Shown here: piece after piece, positions 2,442 to 15,599 of the stretch
How the letters are laid out: each line of letters opens with the position of its first letter
How positions within the stretch are numbered: position 1 is the stretch's first letter
Source of the DNA: a virus
DNA length: 15,599 bases
Virus record (IMG/VR): IMGVR_UViG_3300037175_000342
Coordinates: 1 to 15,599 of that record
Reading direction: 5' to 3' (one strand)
Position numbers and translations under genes: made by a program
The notes under the pieces: generated by a model
Told to the model about the DNA's origin: nothing
Databases searched by the model: none
What the model saw: only the letters and a program-made list of their open reading frames with translations

Positions 2442-2447
2442 CCAGCG

Positions 2448-3125: not shown

Positions 3126-3136
3126 TAGTTCTCCAG

Positions 3137-3175: not shown

Positions 3176-3180
3176 TTGTT

Positions 3181-3215
3181 AGCTAAAAGCTGAAAGCTGA
3201 AAGCTAATAGCTGTT
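3181..3215. repeat. phased heptad tract x5
   Basis: Plus strand reads agctaaa agctgaa agctgaa agctaat agctgtt. Sense reads CAG-CUAU-UAG-CUUU-CAG-CUUU-CAG-CUUU-UAG-CUAA. It starts 1 nt after the capsid-like gene's stop codon. Confidence 0.85.
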
Positions 3216-3216
3216 C

Positions 3217-4521: not shown

Positions 4522-4548
4522 CGCATTCTCCTTGGCGGCCGTTGCATA

Positions 4549-4611
4549 CAGTGGTCAGTGGTTAGTGGTCAGTCAAAAACGCCGCCTGCTCACTGTTCAC
4601 TGCACACTGGC
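4549..4611. repeat. phased heptad tract x9, bipartite
   Basis: Plus strand reads cagtggt cagtggt tagtggt cagtcaa aaacgcc gcctgct cactgtt cactgca cactggc. Sense is CAG-N4 x4, then GCGUUUUU, then CUG/CUA-N4 x4. It ends 27 nt upstream of the capsid-like ATG. Confidence 0.85.
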
Positions 4612-4821
4612 CTTCGGCCAGGTCTATGGTTTTGTACTCGCCAAAGGCCGATTCGCCTTTAGCGGACGACACGCTGGTCCAACCATTGCCCTGCCAAGTT
4701 GATGCGATGTTCCACGTGAAACCTTTTCAAATCCTTCGTGCGCCTGAGCCCCCCGGTAGGGCGATACGCGGTGGCGCGGATTCGGTTTGGTTTCAATCCT
4801 TCCGTATTCTACCCCCGATTG

Positions 4822-6531
4822 CTACTTCTTGCGCAACCGGTGAAATTGCGTCAGTAGCATTGCCTGCCGGTCATGCGGGTTCGCGCCCGCCCACTCCGGC
4901 AACTTGCTGGCCGCTTCCTCCGCAGCCTTCAATACCTGTTCGCGGCTGGCATTCTGCGGCAGGCTCGAGCCGCCTGTCGAGGGCTCCGGCTGCGCCGCCT
5001 GGTTCCGCGCCTTCAGCCGCTCGCCCATCTTCTCCTGGTCCACCTTCACCAGGTTCTGGATGCGCTCCACCTCCGCATCGACCAGCCGCGGGATGATGTC
5101 CGCAGCCTTGCGCGCGTAGTACTCCTGCCGAATCTTGCGGGTTTGCTCGTTCGCCGGCAGCAACTGGTGCTGCGTAATTTCGTAGAGCGTCTTTGATCCC
5201 GGCTTCATCAGTTCGTTTTCAAACTGAATAAAGATCTCGGCGGCAATGCGCGGCGTGTTCCACTCCTGGCCATTCTTGTTGCGATACTTTTCCTGTTTGT
5301 ACATCTCCGGAATGTAGGCCCCGGACTCTTCCACCTTTGCCAGCGCCTCGGCAATCATCTTGCCGGCTGTGGTGCCCATGTCGCCGCGCACGGCAGTGTT
5401 GAACTGCTGAGCCTGCGCCGCTCGCTCTTCCTTGCCGGCGCCCTTCTTCTTATCTTCCAACTCCTGCCGCTGTCGCGCCAGTTCCGCCTGCTGCTGCTCA
5501 AACCACGCTTTCTGCTCTTCCGTCGCCCCCTCGGGGAGCGCCGGCGGACCCACTTCAAAGAACGACCCATCGCGGATCTGGTCAATCACGTCCAGCGCCA
5601 ACTGGGCGTATTTCAAGTTCTCCAGCCGCTGTGCGTCCAGCGCCCGTGCCGCTTCGCTCGGGTAGTGCCCCGCCAGCTTCGTCTCCAGTTGCTGAATTTC
5701 GTTGGCGTTCTTCGTCGACCACTTTCCAATCTCGCGGTTTACCAGGCCGCCCACCACCGCCTGATGATCTGGGTCGAACACGGGGTTGCCCTGCGTGTCC
5801 ACCACCGGCTTGCCTTCGGCGTCCACCTGCTGAAACTGCTGGTCAAACAGGTTCAGAAACTCCGGCACGCTCTCGGGGTTGTCGATCGTCCGCAGGCTGG
5901 CCGTCTTCAGCGCCACTTGGTTAGAGGCCTGCTCCTGCAAAAACTGCGCATCGCCCACCGTCGGGGCAATGGCTAGAATCGGCTCCGCCTCGGCCAGTTT
6001 CCGCGCCAAGGCAAATACGGGCCCCTTCACCTCCGGATGCGCTTCCATAAACGCGCCAAACTCCGGCGACTTTTCCATCAGCTCGGCCAGTTGCCGCGGC
6101 GTGGCCGGTGCGGCCTCCGCCGCCGGAGCAGCGGGCTCCGTTCCGTCCGCCGGCTTCGCGGGCTCCGTCGCGCCCGGCTCTCCGGGGGCCTTGCCTGGTT
6201 CCGTCGCCTGCTTTGTAGCCGCGCCGGTATCGGCAGCAACCTGTTCCCTGTTTTCTGTTCCCTCGTCCTGCTTCAGCGATTCGCCGGGATGCTCGCGCCG
6301 CCAGTTGTGCACGGCGGTCAAAAACTCGCCTTGCTTGTCCGGACCGTAGTCCGAGGCCTTCGGTGGTCCCTGCGGCGCCGGTGCGCCAGCGCTTGGCTGG
6401 CTGGTGCCGGTTATGGCCGCTGGGGGAGCCGCATTCCCCTTCGTTGCCGTGCTGGGGGCCGAACCAGAAGCCGGCGCAGCGGCAGGAGCCGCCGGAGCCG
6501 GAGCCGAAACAGGTGCTGCTGGAGTTGCCAT
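4822..6531 (-). CDS. putative scaffolding-like protein (569 aa)
   Basis: Track ORF. The N-terminal ~150 aa are Ala/Pro/Gly/Thr low complexity. The rest is Glu/Gln/Lys/Arg-rich and helical (e.g. EQKAWFEQQQAELARQRQELEDKKKGAGKEERAAQAQQ). It lies between the portal-like and capsid-like genes. The function is positional inference. Confidence 0.45.
   Translation of the reverse strand: MATPAAPVSAPAPAAPAAAPASGSAPSTATKGNAAPPAAITGTSQPSAGAPAPQGPPKASDYGPDKQGEFLTAVHNWRREHPGESLKQDEGTENREQVAADTGAATKQATEPGKAPGEPGATEPAKPADGTEPAAPAAEAAPATPRQLAELMEKSPEFGAFMEAHPEVKGPVFALARKLAEAEPILAIAPTVGDAQFLQEQASNQVALKTASLRTIDNPESVPEFLNLFDQQFQQVDAEGKPVVDTQGNPVFDPDHQAVVGGLVNREIGKWSTKNANEIQQLETKLAGHYPSEAARALDAQRLENLKYAQLALDVIDQIRDGSFFEVGPPALPEGATEEQKAWFEQQQAELARQRQELEDKKKGAGKEERAAQAQQFNTAVRGDMGTTAGKMIAEALAKVEESGAYIPEMYKQEKYRNKNGQEWNTPRIAAEIFIQFENELMKPGSKTLYEITQHQLLPANEQTRKIRQEYYARKAADIIPRLVDAEVERIQNLVKVDQEKMGERLKARNQAAQPEPSTGGSSLPQNASREQVLKAAEEAASKLPEWAGANPHDRQAMLLTQFHRLRKK
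6241..6268. repeat. short heptad tract x3-4, inside the scaffold-like ORF
   Basis: Plus strand reads ctgttcc ctgtttt ctgttcc ctcgtcc. Sense reads GAG-GGAA-CAG-AAAA-CAG-GGAA-CAG. It encodes DEGTENREQ. Confidence 0.55.
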
Positions 6532-6657
6532 GATCTCACATTCCTCTCAAAACGAAACTGCCGCGCCACTTTCGTTATTCGGGAATTCACCTGCCAATTG
6601 TTTCGTGATCCCCAAAGTGTGCCGTCCTACGAATTTTCATACCTCGCGCTAACGGCG

Positions 6658-7443
6658 TCAAGCCTTAATCGTAACGCGGCCAGCACTCGCCCGAGTTGCC
6701 GTCAACTGCGCCACACCTGATATGTTGTTGCTGACACCAGTCAATTCCGCCATCTTCTGTTCTCCGGCAACCGCATCCAGATCGGCCGCAGACGGTTTGC
6801 CGTTATCGGCATATGATTTGTTATCGGGCTGCGGAGGCGCTTCAGTTGGCTTCTGATTGAGAATTGCCTGCTGGCTCTCAGCTAGTACGGTTAAGTCGGC
6901 AACTCGCGCCGTCAAACCTCTCAGCAACTGCGCGGCACTAATCAACGTGCCCGTCATCGAAATGTCCAATATGTCGTCAATCTCAGCAACCGTCTTGCCG
7001 AGTTCGATCAAATGCGGCAACATTTCTTCCACAATCACGTCATTCTGGTTTTTCGGCGCTGCAACAGAAGTCTCCACCGGCCGCCATCCAATCTTCCGCG
7101 GGTTAGCCTTCACAAACTCCAAATTGGCGGCCACAATCTTCTCCCGCTCGCCCGGCGTCTTCCCGGCCTCTTTCCAAGCCGGATCATGCGCGGCCGCGGC
7201 CTCAGCAACCGCCAGCAGGTGCTCGTCGTCCACCGCCGAGCCCACCAGCGGCGCGGCCTTCACCGTCACCGGCACAGCCAGTTCGTTCAGATAGATCAGG
7301 TTCAGAAACAGGCTGCCCAACTTCGCTCCGCTGTTGTATCCCTCTGTGGGTGCTCCCAGCGCCATCGCGCTGTACTCCTTGTCCGCCGCCGCATACACCA
7401 CAGGTTCACCCAACTTGATGTTCTTCATCTCCGTTGTCGTCAT
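6658..7443 (-). CDS. hypothetical protein (261 aa)
   Basis: Track ORF. ATG 7443 is preceded by AAAGGATTGAACC. It lies between the portal-like and scaffold-like genes. No family recognised. Confidence 0.65.
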   Translation of the reverse strand: MTTTEMKNIKLGEPVVYAAADKEYSAMALGAPTEGYNSGAKLGSLFLNLIYLNELAVPVTVKAAPLVGSAVDDEHLLAVAEAAAAHDPAWKEAGKTPGEREKIVAANLEFVKANPRKIGWRPVETSVAAPKNQNDVIVEEMLPHLIELGKTVAEIDDILDISMTGTLISAAQLLRGLTARVADLTVLAESQQAILNQKPTEAPPQPDNKSYADNGKPSAADLDAVAGEQKMAELTGVSNNISGVAQLTATRASAGRVTIKA

Positions 7444-7467
7444 GGTTCAATCCTTTCGTTTTGCTTT

Positions 7468-7502
7468 TTCTGATCACTAACCACTGTGCACTGATCACTG
7501 CT
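7468..7502. repeat. phased heptad tract x5
   Basis: Plus strand reads ttctgat cactaac cactgtg cactgat cactgct. Sense reads CAG-UGAU-CAG-UGCA-CAG-UGGU-UAG-UGAU-CAG. It overlaps the portal-like gene's stop codon and precedes the 261-aa gene's RBS. Confidence 0.85.
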
Positions 7503-10053
7503 TTAAAAGCTGCGTTTCCACCTTGCCCGCAGTGTCGATTACCTTGCCGGCCGCCGCTACCTGGCCCGTAATCGTCCCTGAAGTCATCGCCGGATCAATC
7601 GCCGCCAGCCGCTCGCACAGCAGCACCATGTCCGCCGCCGCGCTACGCAGCATTCCCAAAGTCTGCTGCTGTACGGGCGCGTTCGGATCCGGCGGCTGGC
7701 TGGCAGCCTTCACCTTCAAGTCGAGCCCCGCCTTGCGCACGCCCTGCTGCGCCTGCATATCCTGACACATGCCAAAGTACTGCTCAATCTGGCTGTAGCC
7801 CACCGGATTCTTGATGCGCAGATCGGCGTTCTCAATGTAGAACTCGGTGATGGTCGGAATCACCACATCGAAGTTCTCCATGATTGAGGGTTCCACCGGC
7901 AGCTTCGACCCGATCGAGCCGTCGTCGTTCATCACCGGCATCGCCGTCTGCTCCAGCAGCGTGTTCATGTCCTCGAGCGTCTTGGCCCGCTGCGCGCTCA
8001 CTGGGCTCACAATGCCGGGGTAGAGTGTTGCTCCAATCACTTCCTGATTTGCCGGAACGTCGAAGATCGCCTGCGCCACCGGATTGCCCGCACTTAGCTC
8101 CTTCACCAGCATGTTGAAGCTCTCGCGGATCTGCTGCGGCGTCTGCGGCAGGCTCTGGTCTTCGTCCGGATACACCTTCACGCGGCCCTGCATCTTTTGC
8201 AGGTTCACATAGTTGGTGCGGAACTGCGCACCCTTATCCTGGATAACTTCGCTGATCTCCTGTGCCGCGCCGCACTTCAGCAGCACGGTCAGGCACTCAA
8301 TCGCGTTCTGGGCTGCTGCCGCGTGCTCTTCCTTTACATTCTCCCAGAAGGGCTCCAGGCCTGTCTGCCCGGATTGCTGCTGAATCTCCTGGCCGCCCAG
8401 CGTCTCCACGCCCGGTGTCGTGCCGTTGCCCGCCAGTTGCGCCGGCAGTCCGTTCAGCATCTGCGCAAAGTTCAGCAACATGCTCGGATACATCCCAAGC
8501 GCCGGATTGACCGGAATGTCGTAGTGCAAAAACGCTTCCTGCAAAGTCCGCTGCGATGCGCCAAACTTTGTGGGCACCGGTATCACCGTCGCCGGGGCCA
8601 GCGTGTTGCCCTTCCACTGGTCGCTGTCGATCATCGCCGCGTCAATCAGGTTCAGGCCGCAGCTCGCGCGCATCATCCAGTCGTCGTAGAGATACATCGC
8701 GTTGTTAAACCGCTCGTTAAAGCTGGTCACATTCTCGGCGATGCTCTGGGAGTAGATGCCGAAGTTCTCAAACAGCCGCCCCAGCGTCCACTCCTTCGTG
8801 AGGACGGCTTTCTTCACGCCCACCACTTCGCCGCCGATCATGGTCAACTTCAACCCGTCCGGCGCCGCCGCCATCATGCGCGCGGCATACTCGCGGTCGC
8901 CGGTGCGCATGTAGCTGGTCGGCTGCATCCACGCCTGGCCATACGTTGGCTTCTGCTGGTCCGTGTCGCTCGTGTATCCGGTGCCCATGGAGTAGCTTTC
9001 GCTTCTCCGTAGCTTGTCATAGCTCGCGTTCTCCGCGGTCGTCGACTCGGCGCCTTCCTTGATCTGGCCCCAGGCGTCCGGAAACATCATGCGCGCTTCG
9101 CCGATGTCGATTTCATAGTCAAAGGCCAGAATCGGCGTGCCGTCCAGGTCCTTTGCCATCGGGTCGCAATCCACCTCGAGCGGCGAGTGGATCGTTTGCT
9201 TCACCATGGCGCGCGGAATCTTCTCCATCTGCACCACGCCGAGCCGCGCCTTCGTCTCGCTCGGGTAGAAGCTGTCCTCGCGCATCTGCCGCTTGCAACC
9301 GGGGCACTCGGCGCCACTCTCGTCCATTTGCAGATCGTCGACCGGGGTTTCCCGGCCGCACCCCAAGCACCGCATCCGGTCGGGCAGTTTGATCTGCATC
9401 TCGCCCATCACCGGCTGAGTGTCGTATCCGCTCCAGCGTCCGTCCAGCACGCCGCGGGTGAATTTAAAGTAGGTCCCGTAGAGATACAGCATTTCAAACT
9501 CGCCGCGCACCATCTGGCGAATCTTGTTGCGCCGCTCAATGATACCCACCGCGTCCTGCGCCGCCGCCGCCGTCGTAATGTCGGCCAGGATGCGCGCGTC
9601 TTGCGGCTTCACCACGGTGTTGGGCACCTCGCGGCTCATGTTACCCACAAAGGTCTGCCCCAGTAATAGCGTCAACGGATGGATAAAGCGCTGCAGGTGC
9701 ACGCTCTCGCCGTCGCGCACTTTATCCGAGCCCTGATACCATGCCAGCGCGTCCACCCAGTTGCCGGTGTCCTGATTCCAGTCAATCACCTGAATGTTGC
9801 GGTAGAACATAACGTTTTTCAGCCATATCTGCATCCGCCGCAACCGGTCCGTGCCCCACTGGTTGCGATACATGCTGATGATCTTGACGCATTGCTGAAT
9901 GTCTTCTTTCGTCAAGTCGAGCTGCATCCACTGGTCTTGCCCGGTGCCCTGCGCGGGGTTCTCCGGGCTGACCGCGGCAACCTCGCTCGCCTGTGATCGC
10001 CCAGGGTCGGCGTTCGGCACCTTCATCGGCAACAGACTCGCTCCAGCGGCCAT
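7495..10053 (-). CDS. putative portal protein (852 aa) with inserted CxxC-x17-CxxC zinc ribbon
   Basis: This is the largest ORF. ATG 10053 is preceded by GGAGTGAGCTA. It lies directly upstream of the scaffold- and capsid-like genes. I found no Walker A motif, so it is not a terminase. The zinc ribbon CLGC...CPGC is at nt 9295..9369. The portal call is positional. Confidence 0.5.
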   Translation of the reverse strand: MAAGASLLPMKVPNADPGRSQASEVAAVSPENPAQGTGQDQWMQLDLTKEDIQQCVKIISMYRNQWGTDRLRRMQIWLKNVMFYRNIQVIDWNQDTGNWVDALAWYQGSDKVRDGESVHLQRFIHPLTLLLGQTFVGNMSREVPNTVVKPQDARILADITTAAAAQDAVGIIERRNKIRQMVRGEFEMLYLYGTYFKFTRGVLDGRWSGYDTQPVMGEMQIKLPDRMRCLGCGRETPVDDLQMDESGAECPGCKRQMREDSFYPSETKARLGVVQMEKIPRAMVKQTIHSPLEVDCDPMAKDLDGTPILAFDYEIDIGEARMMFPDAWGQIKEGAESTTAENASYDKLRRSESYSMGTGYTSDTDQQKPTYGQAWMQPTSYMRTGDREYAARMMAAAPDGLKLTMIGGEVVGVKKAVLTKEWTLGRLFENFGIYSQSIAENVTSFNERFNNAMYLYDDWMMRASCGLNLIDAAMIDSDQWKGNTLAPATVIPVPTKFGASQRTLQEAFLHYDIPVNPALGMYPSMLLNFAQMLNGLPAQLAGNGTTPGVETLGGQEIQQQSGQTGLEPFWENVKEEHAAAAQNAIECLTVLLKCGAAQEISEVIQDKGAQFRTNYVNLQKMQGRVKVYPDEDQSLPQTPQQIRESFNMLVKELSAGNPVAQAIFDVPANQEVIGATLYPGIVSPVSAQRAKTLEDMNTLLEQTAMPVMNDDGSIGSKLPVEPSIMENFDVVIPTITEFYIENADLRIKNPVGYSQIEQYFGMCQDMQAQQGVRKAGLDLKVKAASQPPDPNAPVQQQTLGMLRSAAADMVLLCERLAAIDPAMTSGTITGQVAAAGKVIDTAGKVETQLLKQ

Positions 10054-10069
10054 TAGCTCACTCCGTTCG

Positions 10070-10097
10070 CAGTGGTCAGTTCACAGTGCACAGTAAT
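10070..10097. repeat. phased heptad tract x4
   Basis: Plus strand reads cagtggt cagttca cagtgca cagtaat. Sense is CUG-N4 x4. It lies in the spacer between the 133-aa gene's stop and the portal-like RBS. Confidence 0.8.
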
Positions 10098-10498
10098 TAG
10101 TTTGCCTTCCCCGAGAGCCCGTAAGTGCCATCCTTGATGGCTTCTCGGACTGCCCGGTGCACATCGTCAAAACTCGCGCGCCGCTCGGGCATCGGCGGCA
10201 CCGCAGTGGGTTTTTCCGATTCACGATCCCTGACTTCCGCTGTGTCTCGCTTCTGGTAGATTGCTGGTTGTCCGCTCAACTGCACAATGCGATCGGTCAG
10301 CAATTCCCGCTTCGCTTCACTTGCCATCAGGTCCGCGCGTAGTTGCTTGATCTCGTCCTTCAACTCCACAACCTGCGCCGCGGCCAGATCCCGGTAGCGT
10401 TCGCCGTCCCGAGTATTCGCCTCAATAATCAGGCTGAGCGTCTTTTCGCGCGTCAGCGCAGCATCCAGTTCCGTTCGGCCTACCCAAGGACTTCTCAT
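10097..10498 (-). CDS. hypothetical coiled-coil protein (133 aa)
   Basis: Track ORF. ATG 10498 overlaps the stop of a 22-codon ORF (TCATGA). It has a heptad-like helical stretch (AAAQVVELKDEIKQLRADLMASEAKRELLTDRIVQL). Confidence 0.6.
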   Translation of the reverse strand: MRSPWVGRTELDAALTREKTLSLIIEANTRDGERYRDLAAAQVVELKDEIKQLRADLMASEAKRELLTDRIVQLSGQPAIYQKRDTAEVRDRESEKPTAVPPMPERRASFDDVHRAVREAIKDGTYGLSGKAN

Positions 10499-10563
10499 GA
10501 AAACAACCCCATCAAAAACGCTTTAAACCATTCCTTTTGCTCATCTTTCGCTGGTTTCTTCAT
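10495..10563 (-). CDS. candidate 22-aa micro-ORF (MKKPAKDEQKEWFKAFLMGLFS)
   Basis: Not in the track because it is too short. The sense strand reads TGA-GGAGAAC-ATG AAG AAA ... TCA TGA. It has a strong SD at correct spacing. It starts right after the upstream gene's stop and ends in an ATGA overlap with the next gene. Confidence 0.3.
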   Translation of the reverse strand: MKKPAKDEQKEWFKAFLMGLFS

Positions 10564-10570
10564 GTTCTCC

Positions 10571-10954
10571 TCAGATCCATTCAGTTACGACAATCGCTGT
10601 TGCAGTCGCTGTCTGGCTGGTTACCTGTGCGATCGGTGTGCCCAATCCCGCCGGACCACCAGGCCCAATCGGCTGGCCGCCGGAGCCGCCGTTCCCGATC
10701 GGAACCGTGTTGGGCGGATGATCGCCCGGATAGCCGGAAAACTCGTATTGTCCGGAGGTGTCCACCAGTTGAGCCGGCCCCACATCGTATTGTCCGAATG
10801 GCTTGGCCTTCAGTTCGTTCACAATCAACCCCTGGGGATTCCCACCCGGCGATTGAAGTTCCTGGATCAGCATCTTGCTTGACAACTCTGTGCACCGGAC
10901 AATGAATGGAGCGCTGCCAGCCGCCGGCACGTTATATTGGGATACTTTCTGCAT
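10571..10954 (-). CDS. hypothetical Gly/Pro-rich protein (127 aa)
   Basis: Track ORF 10571..10978 starts at a TTG. I prefer ATG 10954 (MQKVSQYN...), 5 nt after GAGGAG. The C-terminal half is Gly/Pro-rich (GNGGSGGQPIGPGGPAGLG). Confidence 0.6.
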   Translation of the reverse strand: MQKVSQYNVPAAGSAPFIVRCTELSSKMLIQELQSPGGNPQGLIVNELKAKPFGQYDVGPAQLVDTSGQYEFSGYPGDHPPNTVPIGNGGSGGQPIGPGGPAGLGTPIAQVTSQTATATAIVVTEWI

Positions 10955-11080
10955 CGCAACTCCTCTTGACCTGAACAAGTTTGCCGGGCTGTGAGGGAGG
11001 TCGGCCCACCAGCCCGGCTCCTGCGCCGACCCACGTGGTGGGTGCTCCGCCAGCCTTCCCCGAGCCGGCTCTGCGCAAGC

Positions 11081-11560
11081 CTAACTATTTGTGCCCAACA
11101 ACTCATGGTACTTCGCTTCGAGTGTAGCCATTGAGTGCCCCCCCTGTCCATATGCGTTTCCAGGGAAGCTCGCCCAAATGTTTGCGCAGGCCTCAATTGC
11201 CCCGCCAATATCGCCCGCCTCAATCTTTTCCAACGCGCCGCGTTCCTTCATTTGCTGCAACGCCACCGCATCCTGACTGTTCGGGCTAAAGTCCGGTAGA
11301 TGCAACTGCTTTTTGTAGGCGCGCCAGTATCGCGCAAGAATCTGATAGCGGCCGGCGGCCGACGACACCAGTCGCGGCGATTCACGCACCACCACCACAC
11401 CGCCCAACGCAAACGGATGGTCGGCGTAGTTTGTGAACACGGACGGACCCTCCACGCCGGTCACAATCACGTCGTAGCCTTGATTCTCCGTGAGCGGGCT
11501 CGTGCTGGTTCCCTCACTCCATCCAATCAAGTCGAAAAACGCTTTTTGCTTGGCGTCCAT
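11081..11560 (-). CDS. endolysin, phage lambda R-like lytic transglycosylase (GH104)
   Basis: The 159 aa match lambda R (recalled from memory) along the whole length. Matches include KAFFDLIGWSEGT (lambda KAFLDMLAWSEGT, catalytic Glu), GYDVIV, AGRYQILARYWRAYKKQLHLPDFSPNSQDAVALQQMKERGAL and IWASFPG. The RBS GAAGGAATTGA precedes the ATG. Confidence 0.9.
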   Translation of the reverse strand: MDAKQKAFFDLIGWSEGTSTSPLTENQGYDVIVTGVEGPSVFTNYADHPFALGGVVVVRESPRLVSSAAGRYQILARYWRAYKKQLHLPDFSPNSQDAVALQQMKERGALEKIEAGDIGGAIEACANIWASFPGNAYGQGGHSMATLEAKYHELLGTNS

Positions 11561-11573
11561 TCAATTCCTTCGC

Positions 11574-11918
11574 TCAAAAACCAACAGCCGTCGTAAGCTG
11601 CGGCTGTTGGCCGTTACGGCGCCTTTCAAGCTCTTCCGGAGAAAGGAATCCGATATGTTTGCCGCGTGTCTCAATCACCCAAGCGATCTCGGTCATTTCA
11701 TACAAGGTGAGCTTTCCCTGCTCCACAAATCGGTTACATTCGGCGATCTGTGTTCTGATCACCGGGGCTCCCTGTAAAGCGTCGCAGCGTTTTTCTTCTC
11801 TGCCTGTCAATGCACTGCGCCGTCGCAGGCAGAAACGGCAACTTACGCAGGCATCAGCCGATCCCTGTACGGTCGCACCTTGAATCTTTCCAACCAGCGG
11901 ATTTGCATTGATATTCAA
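11574..11918 (-). CDS. hypothetical Cys-rich protein (114 aa)
   Basis: Track ORF is 11574..11978. I prefer TTG 11918 (MNINANPLVGK...), 6 nt after GGGAG, which removes the 49-nt overlap with the upstream gene. It contains CVSCRFC plus two more Cys. Its last codons form a terminator hairpin. Confidence 0.5.
   Translation of the reverse strand: MNINANPLVGKIQGATVQGSADACVSCRFCLRRRSALTGREEKRCDALQGAPVIRTQIAECNRFVEQGKLTLYEMTEIAWVIETRGKHIGFLSPEELERRRNGQQPQLTTAVGF
11576..11610 (-). terminator. intrinsic terminator overlapping the last codons of the Cys-rich gene
   Basis: Sense sequence is CCAACAGCCG-CAGCTTACGA-CGGCTGTTGG-TTTTT. This is a perfect 10-bp stem, a 10-nt loop and U5, ending in the TGA stop 14 nt before the endolysin ATG. 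Confidence 0.5.
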
Positions 11919-11929
11919 CTTCAACTCCC

Positions 11930-12205
11930 TCAGTAGTGCCGCGCCGCGATACGGTTGGACACGAGCGCATCCAGCCAATGATTCCAGAAATGGACGTGGT
12001 AGAACTGCTGGACGGGCGGACCGCGCTGGTTCTGCGGGGCGGCCGCGATTAGCTCAAACTCGTTCGGCCAGTAGCAGGAGTTGATTCCGGCGATTGCTTG
12101 GGCGCCGGGGTCCGTCTTTGTGGGGTCCGGCATGGACTCGTAGCGCGGAGGCGTCCTGTCCTCATTGGGCAGGAGGAACGGGTAGCAAATGTCGAATGAA
12201 CTCAC
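11930..12205 (-). CDS. hypothetical 91-aa protein, weak GH108-like (lysozyme N-terminal domain) resemblance
   Basis: The GTG start forms a GTGA overlap with the upstream stop. FDICYPFLLPNED...DPTKTDPGAQAIAGIN...FYHVHFWNHWLDAL loosely follows the GH108 pattern (F..a..fvL.hEGG...dp.DpGG.T.yGI ... Y....W..l). The EGG and GG signatures are degenerate here. Confidence 0.4.
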   Translation of the reverse strand: MSSFDICYPFLLPNEDRTPPRYESMPDPTKTDPGAQAIAGINSCYWPNEFELIAAAPQNQRGPPVQQFYHVHFWNHWLDALVSNRIAARHY

Positions 12206-12471
12206 TGCGGGATTCCCTCAATTTTCTTGGCGAACGCATTCATCACGTCCTGCTCACAGTGGAATCCGGCCAGTTTGAGCGCCCAGCCGAATACGGGCAC
12301 CGCGATCGTGACGGTCAGCACAGGAACGGCTAACAGCCATGAGAAGTTGATGCCATAGGAGGAATCGCTACCGTCCTCGCTGTCGATGGTCAGGCCGGCG
12401 TCGGAGTGCATGACCTGTTTGATGGCCTGCCAGCGCTCAGGAGTGATGCCCTGGAATGTCTGAGTAATCAT
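12202..12471 (-). CDS. hypothetical membrane-anchored protein (89 aa)
   Basis: Track ORF is 12202..12507. I prefer ATG 12471 (MITQTFQG...), preceded by GGAGGAAGGATTCT and in an ATGA overlap with the DUF3307 stop. It has one C-terminal hydrophobic helix (FSWLLAVPVLTVTIAVPVFGWAL). Confidence 0.6.
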   Translation of the reverse strand: MITQTFQGITPERWQAIKQVMHSDAGLTIDSEDGSDSSYGINFSWLLAVPVLTVTIAVPVFGWALKLAGFHCEQDVMNAFAKKIEGIPQ

Positions 12472-12800
12472 AGAATCCTTCCTCCGTAAACTACCAGAAT
12501 CGCCCATAAAATCTTACAGCCGTAATGAATCGCCTGATCTTGATTGAAGTCGATTAGCTTCTCGCACTTGGCCCAATCTGTCAGCCAGTGAATCACCAGT
12601 TCTACAATGCCGAGTATCAATGACCCCGTGATGAGATAAACCGCCGCAGCCTGAATCAACGCATGGGCTGTGAGGAGTTGCCACCATGCCATTCCCGGAA
12701 TCGGCGTGTGTCGATTCTTACCCTTGGCTAAAAAATCGCCCTGCAACGGGTAGTCGCAGAGCGCGTGTGCAGCGAACATTAAGAAGATCAAACGAAACAT
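12468..12800 (-). CDS. DUF3307-family membrane protein (110 aa)
   Basis: The N-terminal AAHALCDYPLQ matches the DUF3307 signature H..(L/x)DYxLQ as I recall it. It has about 3 hydrophobic helices. ATG 12800 is preceded by GAGGTGAGTT. Spot GC is ~48%, lower than the structural genes. Confidence 0.7.
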   Translation of the reverse strand: MFRLIFLMFAAHALCDYPLQGDFLAKGKNRHTPIPGMAWWQLLTAHALIQAAAVYLITGSLILGIVELVIHWLTDWAKCEKLIDFNQDQAIHYGCKILWAILVVYGGRIL

Positions 12801-12812
12801 AACTCACCTCGC

Positions 12813-12851
12813 AAAAGGCGGCGGCCCGGCTGTTTGAGTGACCGAGCCGCC
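12813..12851 (-). terminator. terminator- or attenuator-like hairpin upstream of the DUF3307 gene
   Basis: Sense sequence is GGCGGCTCGG-TCACTCAAACAG-CCGGGCCGCC-GCC-TTTT. This is a 10-bp stem (one G:U), a 3-nt spacer and a short U4 run, followed by GCGAGGTGAGTT-ATG. The short U run makes it weak. Confidence 0.3.
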
Positions 12852-12884
12852 TGTTAGTCCCGGTGCGTCCGGGGTGAAGGTTTT

Positions 12885-12990
12885 GCGCGTCCAGCCGGAA
12901 TGGTTTCTCACCACCGACCTTCGGGTTTCCAGCCCGATGCTCTAGCAGGTTTCTATCGCCTGCCGCTTCTGAGCTACAGCTGAAACGCGC
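12885..12990 (-). ncRNA. candidate structured RNA, tRNA-like four-way cloverleaf (not a canonical tRNA)
   Basis: The closing helix is GCGCG-UUU-CAGC / GCUG-GA-CGCGC. Arm 2 is GCUC...GAGC capped by GCAGG-CGAUAGAAA-CCUGC. Arm 3 is UCGGG-CUGGAAA-CCCGA, a 5-bp stem with a 7-nt loop (U at position 2, purine after GGA). Arm 4 is CGGUGGU-GAGAA-ACCA(UU)CCG. UAGCUCAG and AGGUC are tRNA-like. It lacks a TPsiC loop, GG in the D loop and a 7-bp acceptor with CCA. Confidence 0.3.
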
Positions 12991-12997
12991 AAACTCG

Positions 12998-13548
12998 TTA
13001 CTCGCTGTGATGCTTCAGCGCGTACACCCTGTTGAATGCCCTTTTCGCAGCGCTCGGTGTAGCGCTCGGAGTCCCAAAAAGCTGGTGCGACAGTCCCGCG
13101 CTGATGGTGTAGAACTGATCCTGTCCAATGAGTCCTCCGCCAGCATAGCCGCCCGTGAAGGTAGTTGCGGGAGTAAGGGCAACCTGAAAGTTTAACCTGC
13201 CCTCCAGCCCCGGCTTGGTCGTGCCGTTCGGCAACGTCGCCACGCCGCCGGCAAAGTCGATGCTGAGGCTCACCTGGTCCGGGTTGAAATTCATCTTGCT
13301 CAAGATGGGTGTCAGGTCCGGCTGGTAGTTCAGGAGGCCACCGTACAGCTCAAAGGCACCCGGAACGAGAAGATGTTGTTTTTCTGCGCTCCGGCGTAGA
13401 AGACGGGAACCTGGAAGGGCGTCAACTCAGTCCCCATATTCCAGCCATGCTGGTAGTAGACTGCCGAGGCTGTGCCGCCCGCGGTCACTTGCGCCACGGC
13501 GGGAATGCTCAATGCGAGAATGCTGCAAATCAGGATGATGCGTTTCAT
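12998..13548 (-). pseudogene. signal-peptide, Gly/Thr-rich beta-rich secreted or outer-membrane-like protein, split by a frameshift
   Basis: ORF 13330..13548 (MKRIILICSILALSIPAVAQ|VTAGG..., strong AGGAGAAACCC RBS) stops at 13330. The frame of ORF 12998..13303 is already open from ~13425. It reads ...LLVPGAFELYGGLLNYQPDLTPILSKMNFNPDQ with no stop. One extra A in the A5 run (13379..13383) would fuse them into ~180 aa. Confidence 0.5.
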
Positions 13549-13562
13549 GGGTTTCTCCTATT

Positions 13563-13847
13563 TCAGATTGTAAGCCCCATTTTCTTCATGAGGATCAAAT
13601 CTTCCGTCGTGAATTCTGAACCGGGATACTCGATGCCTTGTTCCGCCAAGATAGCATCCATTGACAATATCTTGACATAGGGTTGGTATCTTTCCATCAA
13701 CTCTGGAAAGTCCTTCCACCGCCGCATGTGGTTTGCCTTAGACATCTGCGCACCGCGCCATGTTGAGCAAACCTTTGTTCCCTCAAGTTTTCTGCGGCTG
13801 AAATGGAGCACAAGGTATTTCGCATCCCCCAAAACAGGCTCTGCCAT
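13563..13847 (-). CDS. hypothetical protein (94 aa)
   Basis: Track ORF. The ATG overlaps the peptidase stop (TAATG). The segment is AT-richer (rows 13601-13720 are 42-52% GC by my count). No family recognised. Confidence 0.55.
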   Translation of the reverse strand: MAEPVLGDAKYLVLHFSRRKLEGTKVCSTWRGAQMSKANHMRRWKDFPELMERYQPYVKILSMDAILAEQGIEYPGSEFTTEDLILMKKMGLTI

Positions 13848-15599
13848 TAGAGTGCTTTCTGCGCCGCCAGCAGCGCGTTGAGATCGACTCCCGAAGGCGT
13901 CTGGCCGGTTTCAGATTCAACCCATGCGGGGGTCGTTACTATGTAGTCTTCATCTGCCAGTTTCAGCGAGAACTCCCAGGTGCCCTTGATCCAGAGGCCC
14001 CATGAGCCAATGTGCCAGCCTGCCCCACCTTGGCCGGCGCGATTGATGCCGTGACCACCCACGATAGGAGAATCCGGAACATAGGTCCAGTTAGACGTGT
14101 CGTCCTCAGCAGATCGCGGGCACTGGATGCCCATCAGCGTCCCGCCGAACAGGTCGCAGGCATACCGTTGCTGTGCGACCGAACCCAGATCGAGCGATGC
14201 CCAGCCAAAAATCTGATGAATGACTTCCTTGCCGTTCTTGTCGAGCAGCGGGATGCCGTGCTTCTTCCAATAGGCCAGCGCGTCGGTCCAGGCGGTGCCC
14301 TGGTCTGTACTTGGGTCTTTGGGGTCGTATCCGGTGATAGCTGAATAGACCTCAACGGTTAGTTGCCTTGTTGGGGTCAACGGGTTGGACGTGTTCGCCG
14401 TCTCTTCCTGCGCGTAGTGCATCATGGCGGCGATAACGCAGTTATGTGATATAATGCCGTCAGACACATACCATCTTGATTCAGATGAAAGGTCGTAAAT
14501 ATGGCCCACAAACTGATCCACTTCAACCTTGACCACGCGATCAAACTCTACGAGTCCGGGAAATCTCTGGCTCAGGTTGCCGACGAGATCGGCATCTGTT
14601 CTTACGCCACCATCGGCAGAAGGATGATCAAAGCTGGCATCAAACTTCGCACGATGGAGCGAGTGGCTAGCTTGCGTCTCACCAAGAGAATGGAAGATGT
14701 CATCGCCCGTGGGGTGGGACGCTACTTGGCAGGCGAGACGATAAATGATCTCTGCGCGGAACTGGGCGTTGGACGGCGACTTTTTCAAAAGGCCGTTATT
14801 ACTGCTGGCTACGAACTGAGAACCCAAGCGAGGTCCTTGGGCTTGCGCTACAACCGAATGAGTCTTTCCGAACGAGCCGCCATCACTACTGCCGCCAACG
14901 CCGCTATGAGGGGCAAGCCTGCTTCTGCGGGACGCATGGCGCAACGCGCCGCCACGAACGAAAGAACGCTCCAACTTGCCAGCCGAGCGGATCTCATCCT
15001 GAGTGTTTGGCTGGCTCAGAGAGGAATCCAGTTCACCGCGCAAAAGGCGCTCGGCCCGTACAACATCGACATTGCCATCGATGAACTCTCCGTCGCCGTG
15101 GAAGTAAACGGGGGATGGCACTACTTTGAGGGGAGAGCGGTCCCTGAGGCGCAACGCAGAGAATACCTCTTCAACCGGGGATGGCGTCTTATTGAAGTCA
15201 AGCTCACCGCGCCGGAGCTTAAGGTTTGGAAGTGGCTGCGCCCCGCGTGTGCCGACAAGGTAGTCGCCCTTCTTAATGAACTTCGCCAAGGCGAACCCGC
15301 TTGGGGTAAGCATTGCGTGCTTGGGGGTGACGGCGAGGTTCTTTCCTGATTCTGTCCAGATGCGAACAATGGGACCGCTATACGAAGCCCTGTACCCGGC
15401 CTGAATCCCCTCGCCGCTGACCGCCGTTCCCTCTACACAGCAATCGCCTAAAGTATCATTACCGAGAATATCCAACTTGTTCGCCGGGACAGCGTATTCC
15501 CAGCCGCGGGGATTGACTGCCGGCCAGGTTGTCGCCTTATCGAGAAAGTCTCCGAAAGCGGGCGTAGTCAGCAGCCGCTTGGGGTCTAGTTTTCCGAGC
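13847..15599 (-). CDS. papain-like (clan CA-like) cysteine peptidase, intein-containing, 5' partial
   Basis: The frame stays open upstream of the track's TTG (15475) to the window edge (LGKLDPKRLLTTPAFGDFLDKATTWPAVNPRGWEYAVPANK-LDILGND...). With the intein removed, the extein reads GNDTLGDC(C)VIAAMMHYAQ, then VGGHGINRAG, then IGSWGLW. These resemble the papain-family Cys, His and (N)SWG motifs. Confidence 0.75.
   Translation of the reverse strand, partial: LGKLDPKRLLTTPAFGDFLDKATTWPAVNPRGWEYAVPANKLDILGNDTLGDCCVEGTAVSGEGIQAGYRASYSGPIVRIWTESGKNLAVTPKHAMLTPSGFALAKFIKKGDYLVGTRGAQPLPNLKLRRGELDFNKTPSPVEEVFSALRLRDRSPLKVVPSPVYFHGDGEFIDGNVDVVRAERLLRGELDSSLSQPNTQDEIRSAGKLERSFVRGGALRHASRRSRLAPHSGVGGSSDGGSFGKTHSVVAQAQGPRLGSQFVASSNNGLLKKSPSNAQFRAEIIYRLACQVASHPTGDDIFHSLGETQASHSLHRAKFDASFDHPSADGGVRTDADLVGNLSQRFPGLVEFDRVVKVEVDQFVGHIYDLSSESRWYVSDGIISHNCVIAAMMHYAQEETANTSNPLTPTRQLTVEVYSAITGYDPKDPSTDQGTAWTDALAYWKKHGIPLLDKNGKEVIHQIFGWASLDLGSVAQQRYACDLFGGTLMGIQCPRSAEDDTSNWTYVPDSPIVGGHGINRAGQGGAGWHIGSWGLWIKGTWEFSLKLADEDYIVTTPAWVESETGQTPSGVDLNALLAAQKAL
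14447..14455 (+). promoter_or_regulatory. extended -10 promoter element TGaTATAAT for the endonuclease gene
   Basis: It is a perfect TG-n-TATAAT, 46 nt upstream of ATG 14501. There is no good -35, which extended -10 promoters tolerate. It is the reverse complement of the intein block G codons ATT ATA TCA (Ile-Ile-Ser). Confidence 0.4.
14501..15349 (+). CDS. free-standing homing-endonuclease-like protein: 2 HTH-like repeats + DUF559/Vsr-like PD-(D/E)xK nuclease domain (282 aa)
   Basis: This is the only credible plus-strand gene. The ATG follows AAAGG (8-nt spacer) and an in-frame stop. There are two repeats: SLAQVADEIGICSYATIGRRMIKAGIKLRT and TINDLCAELGVGRRLFQKAVITAGYELRT. The C-terminal LILSVWLAQRGIQFTAQKALGPYNIDIAIDELSVAVEVNGGWHY...AQRREYLFNRGWRLIEVK follows the DUF559 pattern (f..Q..ig.y.vDf...iaiEvDG..H...R...L...Gw.vlR). 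EVNG replaces the usual E.DG. The gene lies wholly inside the intein. Confidence 0.75.
   Translation: MAHKLIHFNLDHAIKLYESGKSLAQVADEIGICSYATIGRRMIKAGIKLRTMERVASLRLTKRMEDVIARGVGRYLAGETINDLCAELGVGRRLFQKAVITAGYELRTQARSLGLRYNRMSLSERAAITTAANAAMRGKPASAGRMAQRAATNERTLQLASRADLILSVWLAQRGIQFTAQKALGPYNIDIAIDELSVAVEVNGGWHYFEGRAVPEAQRREYLFNRGWRLIEVKLTAPELKVWKWLRPACADKVVALLNELRQGEPAWGKHCVLGGDGEVLS

What the first reader, a model, noticed from the sequence alone, without database searches (positions are those of the whole stretch)
14501..15349. 849 nt open on both strands in exact codon register
Plus codons start at positions congruent to 2 mod 3. Minus codons span the same triplets, so plus residue j faces minus residue 326-j. 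In this register a stop on one strand requires TTA, CTA or TCA on the other. By my count the plus ORF has 32 Leu and 12 Ser. The facing minus segment (residues 44-329) has about 28 Leu and 29 Ser. None of these uses the three forbidden codons. The plus ORF is bounded exactly by two minus-strand TCA Ser codons (Ser43 and Ser330). High-GC genomes do generate long shadow ORFs in this register, and several occur elsewhere in this window. Those translate to Arg/His/Pro-rich junk. Here the plus product is family-like and the minus product is the junk-like one, yet the minus frame must stay open for the peptidase to be made at all. The nuclease core (plus residues ~160-235) faces the linker. Only the plus termini face the intein splicing domains: residues 1-20 face blocks F/G, and 236-282 face block B. 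Real two-strand constraint is therefore confined to the ends.
Basis: partly seen in the sequence, partly recalled or inferred. Interest (0 to 1): 0.75.

Follow-up and report, generated by a model that had tools for sequence, protein, structure and literature searches.

The report
Antisense homing endonuclease inside an intein
One 849-base stretch is read on both DNA strands: one strand encodes a self-splicing intein in a phage gene, and the other encodes the DNA-cutting enzyme that spreads the intein, an arrangement first described in 2025 and here found in a new host gene.

Summary
The + ORF 14501-15349 and the minus frame use the same triplets, and both are stop-free.

**What it is**
- The minus strand encodes a 334-aa intein (14441-15442). 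It sits immediately before the invariant Cys of an uncharacterised phage protein (phrog_19005 family).
- The + ORF lies wholly inside the intein. It encodes a 2xHTH + Vsr/DUF559-like homing endonuclease.

**Chance or selection**
- In this window alone the double openness is only mildly unlikely (p about 0.02). An ordinary gene here has a 304-codon antisense-open run.
- Across relatives chance is excluded. In 85 of 86 loci, plus 7 of 7 genome loci (GC 38-73%), the minus frame is open in the same register.
- About 482 TTA/CTA/TCA codons were expected in the endonuclease ORFs. None was seen.

**Which strand is constrained**
- Substitution patterns show protein-level selection on the + strand in the core.
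- Over the last ~45 + codons the driver flips to the minus strand (intein block B).

**Expression and mobility**
- The endonuclease's ATG, Shine-Dalgarno site and a promoter-like element are written antisense in intein blocks F and G.
- The intein is identical (0/1002 differences) on contigs whose flanks differ by 10-16%. This indicates recent homing.

**Novelty**
The architecture was published by Gosselin et al. (bioRxiv 2025, "VSR -1 ORF") for actinophage MuF proteins. This is a new member in a new host gene.

The parts
13847..15599 (-). Host gene of the phrog_19005 family, function unknown, carrying the intein. Its 5' end lies beyond the window. The stop codon is at 13847-13849.
   Evidence: phrog_19005, E 2.6e-19 for the spliced extein. 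One search found 161 homologs, mostly 250-280 aa and without an intein.
15443..15599 (-). N-extein, partial, ending ...NDTLGD.
   Evidence: Intein-less alleles read LGD|CVIAAMMHY.
14441..15442 (-). Intein of 334 aa, CCVEGTAV...GIISHN. It has Cys1, block B TxxH, blocks F and G, and a terminal His-Asn.
   Evidence: Pfam Intein_splicing at 35.2 bits, just under the 35.8 cutoff. Boundaries fixed by alignment to intein-less homologs. Coordinates.
13850..14440 (-). C-extein of 197 aa. Its first codon (14438-14440) is the +1 Cys, which is invariant in the extein family.
14501..15349 (+). Homing endonuclease gene of 282 aa, wholly inside the intein, facing intein residues 32-314 codon for codon.
14528..14803 (+). 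Two helix-turn-helix DNA-binding modules, at + residues about 10-44 and 72-101.
   Evidence: Pfam HTH_23, HTH_7 and HTH_28 hits, all below their cutoffs. PDB profile hit 2lvs. AF2 helices.
14927..15205 (+). Vsr/DUF559-like nuclease domain (+ residues 143-235). Contains YNIDIA (15059-15076) and VAVEV (15092-15106).
   Evidence: Pfam DUF559 at 25 bits against a 20.6 cutoff. PDB 3hrl, E 1.1e-5. Foldseek 1cw0 and 3r3p, probability 1.00. Y187, N188, D190, E201 and G227 are invariant or nearly so.
15209..15346 (+). C-terminal tail of the endonuclease (+ residues 237-282). Its sequence is dictated mainly by the intein N-lobe on the other strand.
   Evidence: Here first codon positions diverge more than third positions (d1 0.61 > d3 0.45), and minus amino-acid identity (0.47) exceeds plus identity (0.31).
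15305..15328 (-). Intein block B, TPKHAMLT.
   Evidence: Minus T, H, N and T are invariant across 71 loci.
15152..15178 (-). Intein helix PVEEVFSAL, facing the last nuclease helix on the + strand. This is a doubly constrained stretch.
   Evidence: column 213, minus Glu in 57 of 72. (helix, pLDDT about 68).
14600..15142 (-). Minus-strand linker (intein residues 101-281). It is kept stop-free, has no recognisable fold or family, and is predicted with low confidence.
   Evidence: One search gives minus amino-acid identity 0.21 against plus identity 0.36.
14489..14506 (-). Intein block F, GHIYDL. The His codon CAT is the antisense of the endonuclease ATG.
14441..14458 (-). Intein block G, GIISHN.
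14447..14455 (+). Extended -10 promoter-like element TGaTATAAT. It is the antisense of the Ile-Ile-Ser codons of block G and lies 46 nt upstream of the ATG.
   Evidence: Sequence. Family enrichment. The consensus scan did not call it because there is no -35 element.
14488..14492 (+). Weak Shine-Dalgarno-like AAAGG, 8 nt before the ATG. It is the antisense of the Asp-Leu-Ser codons of block F.
   Evidence: The family consensus is ttGGAGGTcatAaACATG.

Best explanation
The region is a composite selfish element: an intein with its homing endonuclease gene written on the opposite strand, in exact codon register.

**How it most likely works**
- The phage host gene on the minus strand is translated straight through the element.
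- The N-terminal Hint lobe (the splicing fold; intein residues about 1-100) and the C-terminal lobe (about 282-334) fold together.
- The roughly 180 residues between them are the antisense reading of the endonuclease gene. They act as a tolerated, probably disordered linker.
- The intein then splices itself out at GD|C, restoring the host protein.
- From the + strand, a 282-aa protein (two HTH modules plus a Vsr/DUF559-type nuclease) is made from signals that also lie inside the intein. The ATG is the antisense of the block F His codon. The ribosome-binding site is the antisense of the Asp-Leu codons of block F. A -10 element is the antisense of block G codons.
- This endonuclease cuts intein-less alleles of the host gene near ...GGCGAT|TGCGTTATCGCC... 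Repair from the occupied allele copies the intein and endonuclease into the empty site.
- Because both products are needed, neither strand may use TTA, CTA or TCA, and every indel must be a multiple of three. That freezes the register.

**Shown**
- Both open frames and the shared register.
- Homology and predicted fold of the endonuclease.
- Intein boundaries.
- Selection for double openness across relatives.
- + strand purifying selection in the core, with the driver strand flipping at the 3' end.
- An identical intein in diverged extein backgrounds.

**Inferred**
- Splicing activity.
- Nuclease activity and target site.
- Promoter function.
For: **Identity of the two products**
- Register and openness.
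- + ORF: DUF559 above the Pfam cutoff plus HTH hits. JGI names its homologs 'very-short-patch-repair endonuclease'. AF2 mean pLDDT is 88.2. Foldseek top hits are Vsr 1cw0 and homing endonuclease I-Bth0305I 3r3p, both probability 1.00.
- Intein: block motifs and Pfam Intein_splicing. Intein-less homologs up to 91% identical align seamlessly across LGD|CVIAAMMHY at protein and DNA level.

**Family evidence**
- Homologs of the + ORF lie antisense inside uninterrupted annotated CDSs in 7 of 7 GenBank phages inspected. Hosts are Gordonia, Idiomarinaceae, Aggregatibacter, Pseudomonas, Salmonella and Vibrio.
- In 85 of 86 loci (GC 0.384-0.732) and in 7 of 7 bacterial-genome loci, the minus frame is open across the whole endonuclease in the same register. 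It is never open in the other two minus registers.
- Host-gene codon usage predicts about 482 TTA/CTA/TCA codons in 72 unique endonuclease ORFs. None is observed. The host genes outside the overlap have 674 in 29,650 codons.

**Which strand is selected**
- In the core, third positions of + codons diverge most (d3 0.66 > d1 0.53 > d2 0.45), and amino-acid identity is 0.357 on plus against 0.210 on minus.
- In the last ~45 codons the order reverses (d1 0.61 > d3 0.45), and identity is 0.312 on plus against 0.471 on minus.

**Expression signals**
- Of 39 full-length loci, 25 have a perfect TATAAT within 75 nt upstream of the ATG. Background is 0.010 per 75 nt.
- 13 of these have a -35 element matching at least 5 of 6 at 16-18 nt spacing, 7 have the extended TGn, and 25 have GGAG or GAGG.

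**Mobility**
- Four metagenome contigs carry the identical intein (0 of 1002 differences).
- Their flanking extein DNA differs by 10-16%. Only 29 and 38 nt next to the intein are identical.

**Literature**
- The same class is listed as 'VSR -1 ORF' for Malisha, Vivi2, Angelicage, Affeca and Fosterous in Gosselin et al.. These phages are my tblastn hits H1-H8.
Against: - There is no expression, splicing or cleavage data for this or any member of the family.
- Within the window alone the double openness is only p about 0.02, and an ordinary gene here shows a longer antisense-open run.
- The window's own signals are weaker than the family consensus. The Shine-Dalgarno-like site is AAAGG, there is no -35 element, and the generic promoter scan missed it.
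- The AF2 model of the intein used only 6 sequences and has mean pLDDT 44.5. Low confidence in the linker is therefore weak evidence of disorder.
- Pfam Intein_splicing scores 35.2 bits, just under its 35.8 cutoff.
- The loci are related by descent, so counts over loci are not fully independent. Most pairs are under 50% identical at the nucleotide level, which limits this concern.
- The mirror test (+ frame open given the minus codons) is circular, because matches were defined inside open + ORFs.
Confidence: 0.85

Rival explanations
1. The + ORF is a chance shadow ORF. A fairly GC-rich gene that rarely uses TTA, CTA or TCA leaves its codon-aligned antisense frame open, and the + ORF encodes nothing.
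For: Forbidden codons make up only 1.07% of codons in this window's genes. The gene at 7495-10053 has a 304-codon antisense-open run, and several shadow ORFs of 160-271 aa exist in this register. The single-locus p value is only 0.022.
Against: The + product passes Pfam DUF559, folds confidently into a Vsr-like nuclease, and has homologs at 25-56% identity. Substitution follows the + frame pattern d3 > d1 > d2. The arrangement also persists at 38-45% GC, where 10-17 forbidden codons per ORF are expected.
Confidence: 0.02
2. The endonuclease gene is a non-functional relic. The intein is effectively a mini-intein with a long insert, is inherited vertically, and no longer homes.
For: There is no biochemical evidence. 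Gosselin et al. note that several VSR-like groups look vertically inherited. The window's ribosome-binding and promoter signals are weaker than the family consensus.
Against: The conserved nuclease residues are intact. The + frame shows purifying selection. The intein is 100% identical over 1002 nt on contigs whose flanks differ by 10-16%, with short identical tracts next to the intein, as expected from recent gene conversion. Intein-less alleles coexist in metagenomes.
Confidence: 0.08
3. This is a fractured gene with a split intein, as in Dassa et al. 2009. The host gene would be translated as two polypeptides that are joined by trans-splicing, and the minus frame across the endonuclease would not be translated.
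For: The same endonuclease type (Vsr-like) sits between split-intein halves in published fractured genes.
Against: There is no stop codon anywhere in the minus frame here, nor in 85 of 86 plus 7 of 7 relatives. Without read-through translation there would be no reason for complete avoidance of three sense codons in the + ORF. The published fractured genes are defined by a stop and a restart brought in with the endonuclease gene.
Confidence: 0.02
4. The minus-strand 'linker' is itself a functional in-frame domain, such as a degenerate endonuclease or DNA-binding domain, so both strands encode folded functional proteins across the core.
For: Third-position bias at alignment columns 183 and 188-191 and at column 213 fits conserved minus residues G, G-D-G-H and E inside the + catalytic region. 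H, G and D are invariant in the six-sequence minus alignment.
Against: The central 133 aa have no Pfam hit even at E <= 10. AF2 gives pLDDT < 50 over intein residues 101-281. Minus amino-acid identity across the core is 0.21 against 0.36 for plus, and the substitution pattern is the reverse of what a coding minus frame would give. Gosselin et al. also found no recognisable structure there.
Confidence: 0.03

Closest known systems
Anti-sense VSR-like homing endonuclease inteins ('VSR -1 ORF') of actinobacteriophage MuF-like minor capsid proteins (Gosselin, Arsenault and Gogarten, bioRxiv 10.1101/2025.01.02.630785)
   Same: The intein ORF is contiguous and a Vsr-like endonuclease ORF lies on the antisense strand in frame -1 between the splicing blocks. 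The window's endonuclease is a detectable homolog (28-31% identity, E down to 7e-18) of those in Malisha, Vivi2, Angelicage, Affeca and Fosterous. The structural matches are the same (Vsr 1cw0, I-Bth0305I 3r3p).
   Different: The host gene is a different family: phrog_19005, inserted at GD|C, rather than MuF at HPN|CRC. The source is a metagenomic phage-like contig of about 59% GC whose nearest relatives are not actinophages. The nearest named relative is in a Dormibacterota MAG. The main text of the preprint does not mention stop-avoidance statistics, the flip of the driver strand, or expression signals embedded in blocks F and G.
Fractured genes: split inteins with a free-standing Vsr-like endonuclease gene between the halves (Dassa et al. 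2009, PMC2677866)
   Same: The endonuclease superfamily is the same, it is inserted in the intein between the N and C splicing lobes, and the elements occur mostly in phages.
   Different: In fractured genes the host gene is broken into two ORFs and trans-splicing is needed. Here the host frame is uninterrupted.
Anti-sense LAGLIDADG endonuclease inteins (Gorbalenya 1998; Gogarten et al. 2002; cited in the preprint)
   Same: The endonuclease is encoded on the strand opposite to a contiguous intein.
   Different: The nuclease family is unrelated (LAGLIDADG rather than Vsr/PD-(D/E)xK-like). I did not examine those sequences.
I-Bth0305I / EDxHD homing endonucleases (Taylor et al. 2011, PMC3239194) and E. 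coli Vsr
   Same: The catalytic-domain fold matches (Foldseek probability 1.00; target TM-score 0.60 and 0.52).
   Different: I-Bth0305I is encoded in a group I intron. Sequence similarity is very low (14-21% identity). The N-terminal 2xHTH region is not shared with either protein.

Membership tests
Intein (class 1, Hint fold) | Nucleophile at position 1 (Cys, Ser or Thr) | tested here: met
   Cys1 (codon 15440-15442) directly follows ...LGD of the extein. The boundary is fixed by intein-less homologs.
Intein (class 1, Hint fold) | Block B TxxH motif | tested here: met
   TPKH at 15317-15328. T and H are invariant on the minus strand in 71 loci.
Intein (class 1, Hint fold) | C-terminal His-Asn followed by a +1 Cys, Ser or Thr | tested here: met
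   ...GIISHN|C. The +1 Cys is invariant in the extein family.
Intein (class 1, Hint fold) | Profile match to an intein splicing domain | tested here: inconclusive
   Pfam PF14890 scores 35.2 bits against a 35.8 cutoff, E 1.4e-8. TIGR01445 scores 15.8 against 24.5. The AF2 beta-strands are confident only in the two lobes.
Intein (class 1, Hint fold) | In-frame insertion absent from orthologs, whose removal restores a contiguous conserved host protein | tested here: met
   The spliced extein aligns end to end with 250-280 aa homologs at up to 91% identity, and with DNA of an empty allele.
Intein (class 1, Hint fold) | Protein splicing activity | not testable with these tools
   Requires expression of the precursor.
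Vsr/DUF559-like (EDxHD-related) homing endonuclease | Profile match to DUF559/Vsr-like nuclease | tested here: met
   PF04480 scores 25.0 bits against a 20.6 cutoff. The PDB profile hit is 3hrl, E 1.1e-5.
Vsr/DUF559-like (EDxHD-related) homing endonuclease | Vsr-like fold of the catalytic domain | tested here: met
   AF2 pLDDT is 88. Foldseek gives 1cw0, 1vsr and 3r3p at probability 1.00, with E-values of 2e-3 to 6e-3.
Vsr/DUF559-like (EDxHD-related) homing endonuclease | Conserved acidic and His catalytic residues present | tested here: met
   D190 (in YNIDIA), E201 (in VAVEV) and H207 are present, and are invariant or nearly so in the family. Their catalytic role is assigned by analogy only.
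Vsr/DUF559-like (EDxHD-related) homing endonuclease | Site-specific cleavage of the empty allele | not testable with these tools
   Indirect support only: the intein is identical in diverged flanks.
Anti-sense VSR-like HEN intein ('VSR -1 ORF', Gosselin et al. 2025) | Uninterrupted intein/extein ORF | tested here: met
Anti-sense VSR-like HEN intein ('VSR -1 ORF', Gosselin et al. 2025) | Complete Vsr-like ORF on the opposite strand, frame -1, inside the intein | tested here: met
Anti-sense VSR-like HEN intein ('VSR -1 ORF', Gosselin et al. 2025) | Homology to the published members | tested here: met
   tblastn hits to Malisha, Vivi2, Fosterous, Affeca and Angelicage. These are listed as 'VSR -1 ORF' in the preprint's table.
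Fractured gene / split intein (Dassa et al. 2009) | Host gene broken by a stop and a restart flanking the endonuclease gene | tested here: not met
   There is no stop in the minus frame from 13850 to 15598.
   No Pfam, NCBIfam or PDB-sequence match. Only the invariant GDC...GGH pattern is seen. The fold was not predicted.

The most novel reading that the evidence does not exclude
The conserved protein-splicing motifs of this intein lineage may double, on the complementary strand, as the complete expression cassette of the endonuclease.
- Block G codons would spell a sigma-70 promoter. Many members have TTGACA-N17-TATAAT. The window has TGaTATAAT.
- Block F Asp-Leu-Gln codons would spell the Shine-Dalgarno site GGAGG.
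- The block F His codon would spell the ATG.
- A short stretch of the nuclease active site (V-A-V-E) would be co-encoded with a conserved minus-strand H-G-D-G motif.

On this reading the whole endonuclease family would be obligately nested antisense in register -1. It would be a three-layer overlapping code kept over GC 38-73%.
Probability: 0.45. Interest if true: 0.7.

Novelty: new member of a known kind. Interest (0 to 1): 0.55.

Why it matters
- **Rare kind of overlap.** Long same-register antisense overlaps in which both strands are demonstrably under selection are rare in bacteria and phages. Claims of this kind are usually hard to separate from shadow ORFs. Here the constraint can be measured: three sense codons are completely absent across hundreds of expected occurrences.
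- **Division of labour is visible.** One strand is selected for its protein, and the other only to stay open. The roles swap at the 3' end of the endonuclease gene.
- **Annotation.** Annotation practice assumes one frame per locus, so these endonucleases go unannotated in GenBank phages of Salmonella, Pseudomonas, Vibrio, Aggregatibacter and Gordonia. The inteins then look like decaying or mini-inteins.
- **Intein evolution.** It supports the view that inteins acquire endonucleases by capturing free-standing genes. It also shows the composite can move to a new host gene, from MuF to the phrog_19005 family.
- **Engineering.** It shows a Hint domain that tolerates a roughly 180-residue arbitrary insert.

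Tried and rejected
- **DNA search of GenBank phages.** blastn of the region found nothing. Only protein-level searches found relatives.
- **Genome scan with alignment A1.** I repeated it with the closer alignment A3.
- **Early literature searches.** Searches for 'opposite strand', 'antisense' with DUF559, and MuF gave nothing useful. The search 'Vsr + free-standing + intein' found the key preprint.
- **Generic promoter scan.** It found no sigma-70 site upstream of the ATG. The extended -10 element was seen only by reading the sequence and comparing loci.
- **Host protein annotation.** Pfam, PHROGs, NCBIfam and PDB sequence searches gave only phrog_19005, of unknown function.
- **Deep alignment for the intein.** Only 5 database homologs were found, so the AF2 model is weak. 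I did not run a fold search on it.
- **The mirror statistic.** I dropped '617 forbidden codons expected in the minus linker, none observed' as evidence. It is circular, because the matched region was defined inside an open + ORF.
- **Rivals considered and rejected.** Chance shadow ORF, split intein, and an in-frame nuclease domain in the minus linker (see rivals).


Full report
**1. The observation**

- The + ORF runs from ATG 14501 to TGA 15347-15349 and encodes 282 aa.
- The minus strand is stop-free from 13850 to the last complete codon of the window at 15598.
- Both strands use triplets that start at positions congruent to 2 mod 3, so each + codon faces one minus codon. The other four frames carry 9-20 stops over the same span.
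The + ORF has 32 Leu and 12 Ser, the facing minus segment has 27 Leu and 29 Ser, and none uses TTA, CTA or TCA.
- The + frame is bounded by two TGA codons that are TCA Ser codons on the minus strand.
- One correction: the minus gene does not start at TTG 15475. Its frame runs off the window, and homologs together with contig L086 place the start upstream of 15599.

**2. Chance, judged within the window**

- Thirteen minus-strand ORFs of the window give TTA+CTA at 8.4% of Leu codons and TCA at 8.2% of Ser codons.
- Resampling the synonymous codons of the + ORF with that usage keeps the antisense frame open in 2,161 of 100,000 trials, p = 0.022.
- As a control, the ordinary 852-codon gene at 7495-10053 contains a 304-codon run without the three codons. 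Shadow ORFs of 160-271 aa in this register are common in the window.
- Length and openness alone would therefore not justify the finding.

**3. What the two strands encode**

*Plus strand*
- The product passes Pfam DUF559 (25 bits against a 20.6 cutoff) and has two HTH modules.
- Database homologs at 41-56% identity are named 'very-short-patch-repair endonuclease' by JGI.
- With a 21-sequence alignment, AlphaFold2 (AF2) gives mean pLDDT 88.2 and no low-confidence segment.
- The best PDB matches are Vsr (1cw0, 1vsr) and the homing endonuclease I-Bth0305I (3r3p), all at probability 1.00.

*Minus strand*
- The product is an intein inside a protein of family phrog_19005.
- Intein-less homologs, mostly 250-280 aa and up to 91% identical, read ...LGD|CVIAAMMHY....
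- This fixes the intein as the 334 residues CCVEG...GIISHN, at 14441-15442. It sits immediately before a Cys that is invariant in the host family.
- An intein-less allele also aligns across the junction at the DNA level.
- The + ORF lies wholly inside the intein, facing intein residues 32-314. So 849 of the intein's 1002 nt are read on both strands.
- The 'peptidase' label is unsupported. Pfam, NCBIfam and PDB sequence searches found nothing for the host protein.

**4. Relatives decide the question**

- tblastn of the + product hits 53 GenBank phage records.
- In all seven I inspected, the homolog lies antisense inside an uninterrupted annotated CDS, usually a MuF-like head protein that contains an intein. 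The phages are Gordonia Vivi2 and Malisha, Idiomarinaceae 1N2-2, Aaphi23, Pseudomonas BR313c, a Salmonella phage and a Vibrio phage.
- A profile scan of IMG/VR found 287 relatives. I analysed the best 80, the five phage loci and the window together.
- In 85 of these 86 loci (GC 0.384-0.732) the minus strand is stop-free across the entire endonuclease match, in the same triplet register, and continues into flanking host-gene sequence. The other two minus registers are never open.
- Seven loci from bacterial genomes and MAGs show the same arrangement. They come from Streptomyces, Anaerolinea, Bacteroidales, Saccharibacteria, Actinomycetes, Dormibacterota and an uncultured, unclassified bacterium.
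- For each locus I took codon usage from its own host gene outside the overlap. That predicts about 482 TTA/CTA/TCA codons in the 72 unique endonuclease ORFs. None is present. The host genes outside the overlap use them at 2.3% (674 of 29,650 codons).
- Loci were ascertained by + strand protein similarity only, so this test is not circular. The mirror test is circular, and I do not use it.
Only L079 qualifies. There the MuF gene has no intein (...HPNCRCCLTFKVD*), and the endonuclease gene sits free-standing and convergent just downstream. It still carries the mirror image of block B. L079 is a derived free-standing copy, not a broken host gene.

**5. Which strand is under protein-level selection**

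- I built a codon alignment of 72 unique loci on the endonuclease profile (282 profile columns).
- In the core (columns 15-204), divergence by + codon position is d3 0.66 > d1 0.53 > d2 0.45. Mean amino-acid identity is 0.357 on plus and 0.210 on minus.
- In the tail (columns 237-278) the order reverses: d1 0.61 > d3 0.45, with identity 0.312 on plus and 0.471 on minus.
- Per-column entropies show the invariant minus residues T, H, N, T, G and G of block B (TPNHPxLT..GW) in the tail.
- The apparently conserved + motif YxVIRGxGE is therefore just the antisense image of TPNHPI.
- Conversely, the minus 'motifs' FHGD and VDVV are images of the + nuclease motifs VAVE and YNIDIA.
- The AF2 model of the intein used only six sequences. 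It is confident only for intein residues 17-68, 86-100 (the helix PVEEVFSAL) and 282-334. Residues 101-281 score below 50. The central 133 residues have no Pfam hit even at E <= 10.
  1. Stop avoidance constrains all 849 nt.
  2. The doubly constrained 3' zone begins near + residue 215, not 236.
  3. Columns 183, 188-191 and 213 show a third-position bias that the + strand alone does not explain. Third-position entropy (H3) there is 0.0-1.2, against 1.6-2.0 at other conserved Gly and Ala columns. The bias fits conserved minus residues G, G-D-G-H and E. I leave this unexplained.

**6. Expression signals hidden in the splicing motifs**

- In full-length members, the endonuclease ATG is the antisense of the His codon of block F (G-H-V-Y-D-L-Q).
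- The upstream consensus ttGGAGGTcatAaACATG is the antisense of those same codons, so it supplies a Shine-Dalgarno site 8 nt before the ATG.
- Of 39 full-length unique loci, 25 carry a perfect TATAAT within 75 nt upstream. Background is 0.010 per 75 nt.
- Of those, 13 have a -35 element matching TTGACA at 5 of 6 or better with 16-18 nt spacing, and 7 have the extended TGn. All of these lie in block G codons. In addition, 25 of the 39 loci carry GGAG or GAGG 6-17 nt upstream of the ATG, in block F codons.
- The window has TGaTATAAT at 14447-14455, the antisense of Ile-Ile-Ser of GIISHN. It also has AAAGG at 14488-14492 and the ATG at 14501. It has no -35 element, and the generic scan did not call a promoter.
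- Function of these signals is inferred, not shown.

**7. Mobility**

- The exact + protein occurs on four short JGI metagenome contigs from different samples.
- Against the window, their inteins show 0 differences in 1002 nt.
- Their flanking extein DNA differs at 16 of 156 positions on the N side and 17 of 106 on the C side. Only 38 and 29 nt next to the intein are identical.
- This is the pattern expected from recent homing with short co-conversion tracts. Empty alleles coexist in metagenomes.

**8. Comparison with what is known**

- Gosselin, Arsenault and Gogarten (bioRxiv 10.1101/2025.01.02.630785) describe contiguous inteins with an anti-sense VSR-like endonuclease in actinophage MuF-like minor capsid proteins.
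- Their supplementary table labels Malisha, Vivi2, Angelicage, Affeca and Fosterous 'VSR -1 ORF'. These are exactly my top tblastn hits.
- According to that paper, antisense LAGLIDADG inteins have been known since 1998-2002.
- Dassa et al. 2009 described the split-intein ('fractured gene') version with Vsr-like endonucleases.
- The window is therefore a new member of a known kind.
- What differs or is added here:
  - a different host gene and insertion site: phrog_19005, GD|C, shared with L006, L007 and a Dormibacterota MAG;
  - occurrence well beyond actinophages;
  - the quantitative proof of stop avoidance;
  - the flip of the driver strand;
  - the embedded start, ribosome-binding and promoter signals. 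The terms 'promoter' and 'ribosom' do not occur in the preprint's main text, and 'register' does not either.

**9. Verdict**

- The mechanism is an intein plus an antisense homing endonuclease with enforced double openness. My confidence is 0.85.
- Splicing, cleavage and antisense transcription remain untested.

Noticed in passing
L079:2866-4345: This is the only locus where the minus frame is broken. The endonuclease gene is free-standing and convergent. It overlaps by about 14 nt the end of an intein-less MuF gene (...HPNCRCCLTFKVD*) and has its own strong GAGGAGG ribosome-binding site. Its C-terminus still carries YKVIWG, the mirror of intein block B, so it seems to descend from an intein-embedded copy.
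   Followed up: partly
window 15059-15106 (alignment columns 183-191) and 15137-15139 (column 213): Inside the + driven nuclease core, third codon positions are unusually fixed. Column 188 has C in 66 of 66 loci. This fits conserved minus-strand residues G, G-D-G-H and E opposite the + motifs. It may be a genuinely dual-coded motif. The cause is unexplained.
   Followed up: partly
L013, L046, L049, L070 and others, about 30-60 nt upstream of the endonuclease ATG: Many relatives carry a consensus sigma-70 promoter (TTGACA-N17-TATAAT) written antisense in the Leu-Ser-Ser and Leu-Tyr-Ile codons of intein block G. This holds even in 60-65% GC phages, where ATT, ATA and TTA codons are otherwise rare.
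   Followed up: partly
L086-L089 versus window 14335-15598: The 1002-nt intein is identical on four contigs from different metagenomes. The flanking extein DNA differs by 10-16%, and only 29 and 38 nt next to the intein are identical.
   Followed up: yes
window 7495-10053 (and 4822-6531, 3217-4521): Ordinary genes here have antisense same-register open runs of 304, 259 and 239 codons. Examples are the + ORFs at 8197-9012 and 6037-6720. These are shadow ORFs with no family match to their parent genes in Pfam or PHROGs. They are a caution against calling dual coding from openness alone.
   Followed up: partly
window 337-10498: Nine ORFs on the minus strand (133-852 aa) have no Pfam or PHROG hit at all. 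Only 11081-11560 matches an endolysin family (phrog_17029 and phrog_90). The window looks like a poorly charted phage structural/lysis module.
   Followed up: no
window about 11500: GC skew changes from about -0.1 to -0.2 (positions 1-11500) to about 0 (11500-15599), and GC falls from about 0.60 to about 0.56. This may be a module boundary.
   Followed up: no
L005, L012, L040, L041 and others (profile start near column 52): About a third of the relatives are shorter forms that lack the first HTH module. Their start codons were not determined.
   Followed up: no
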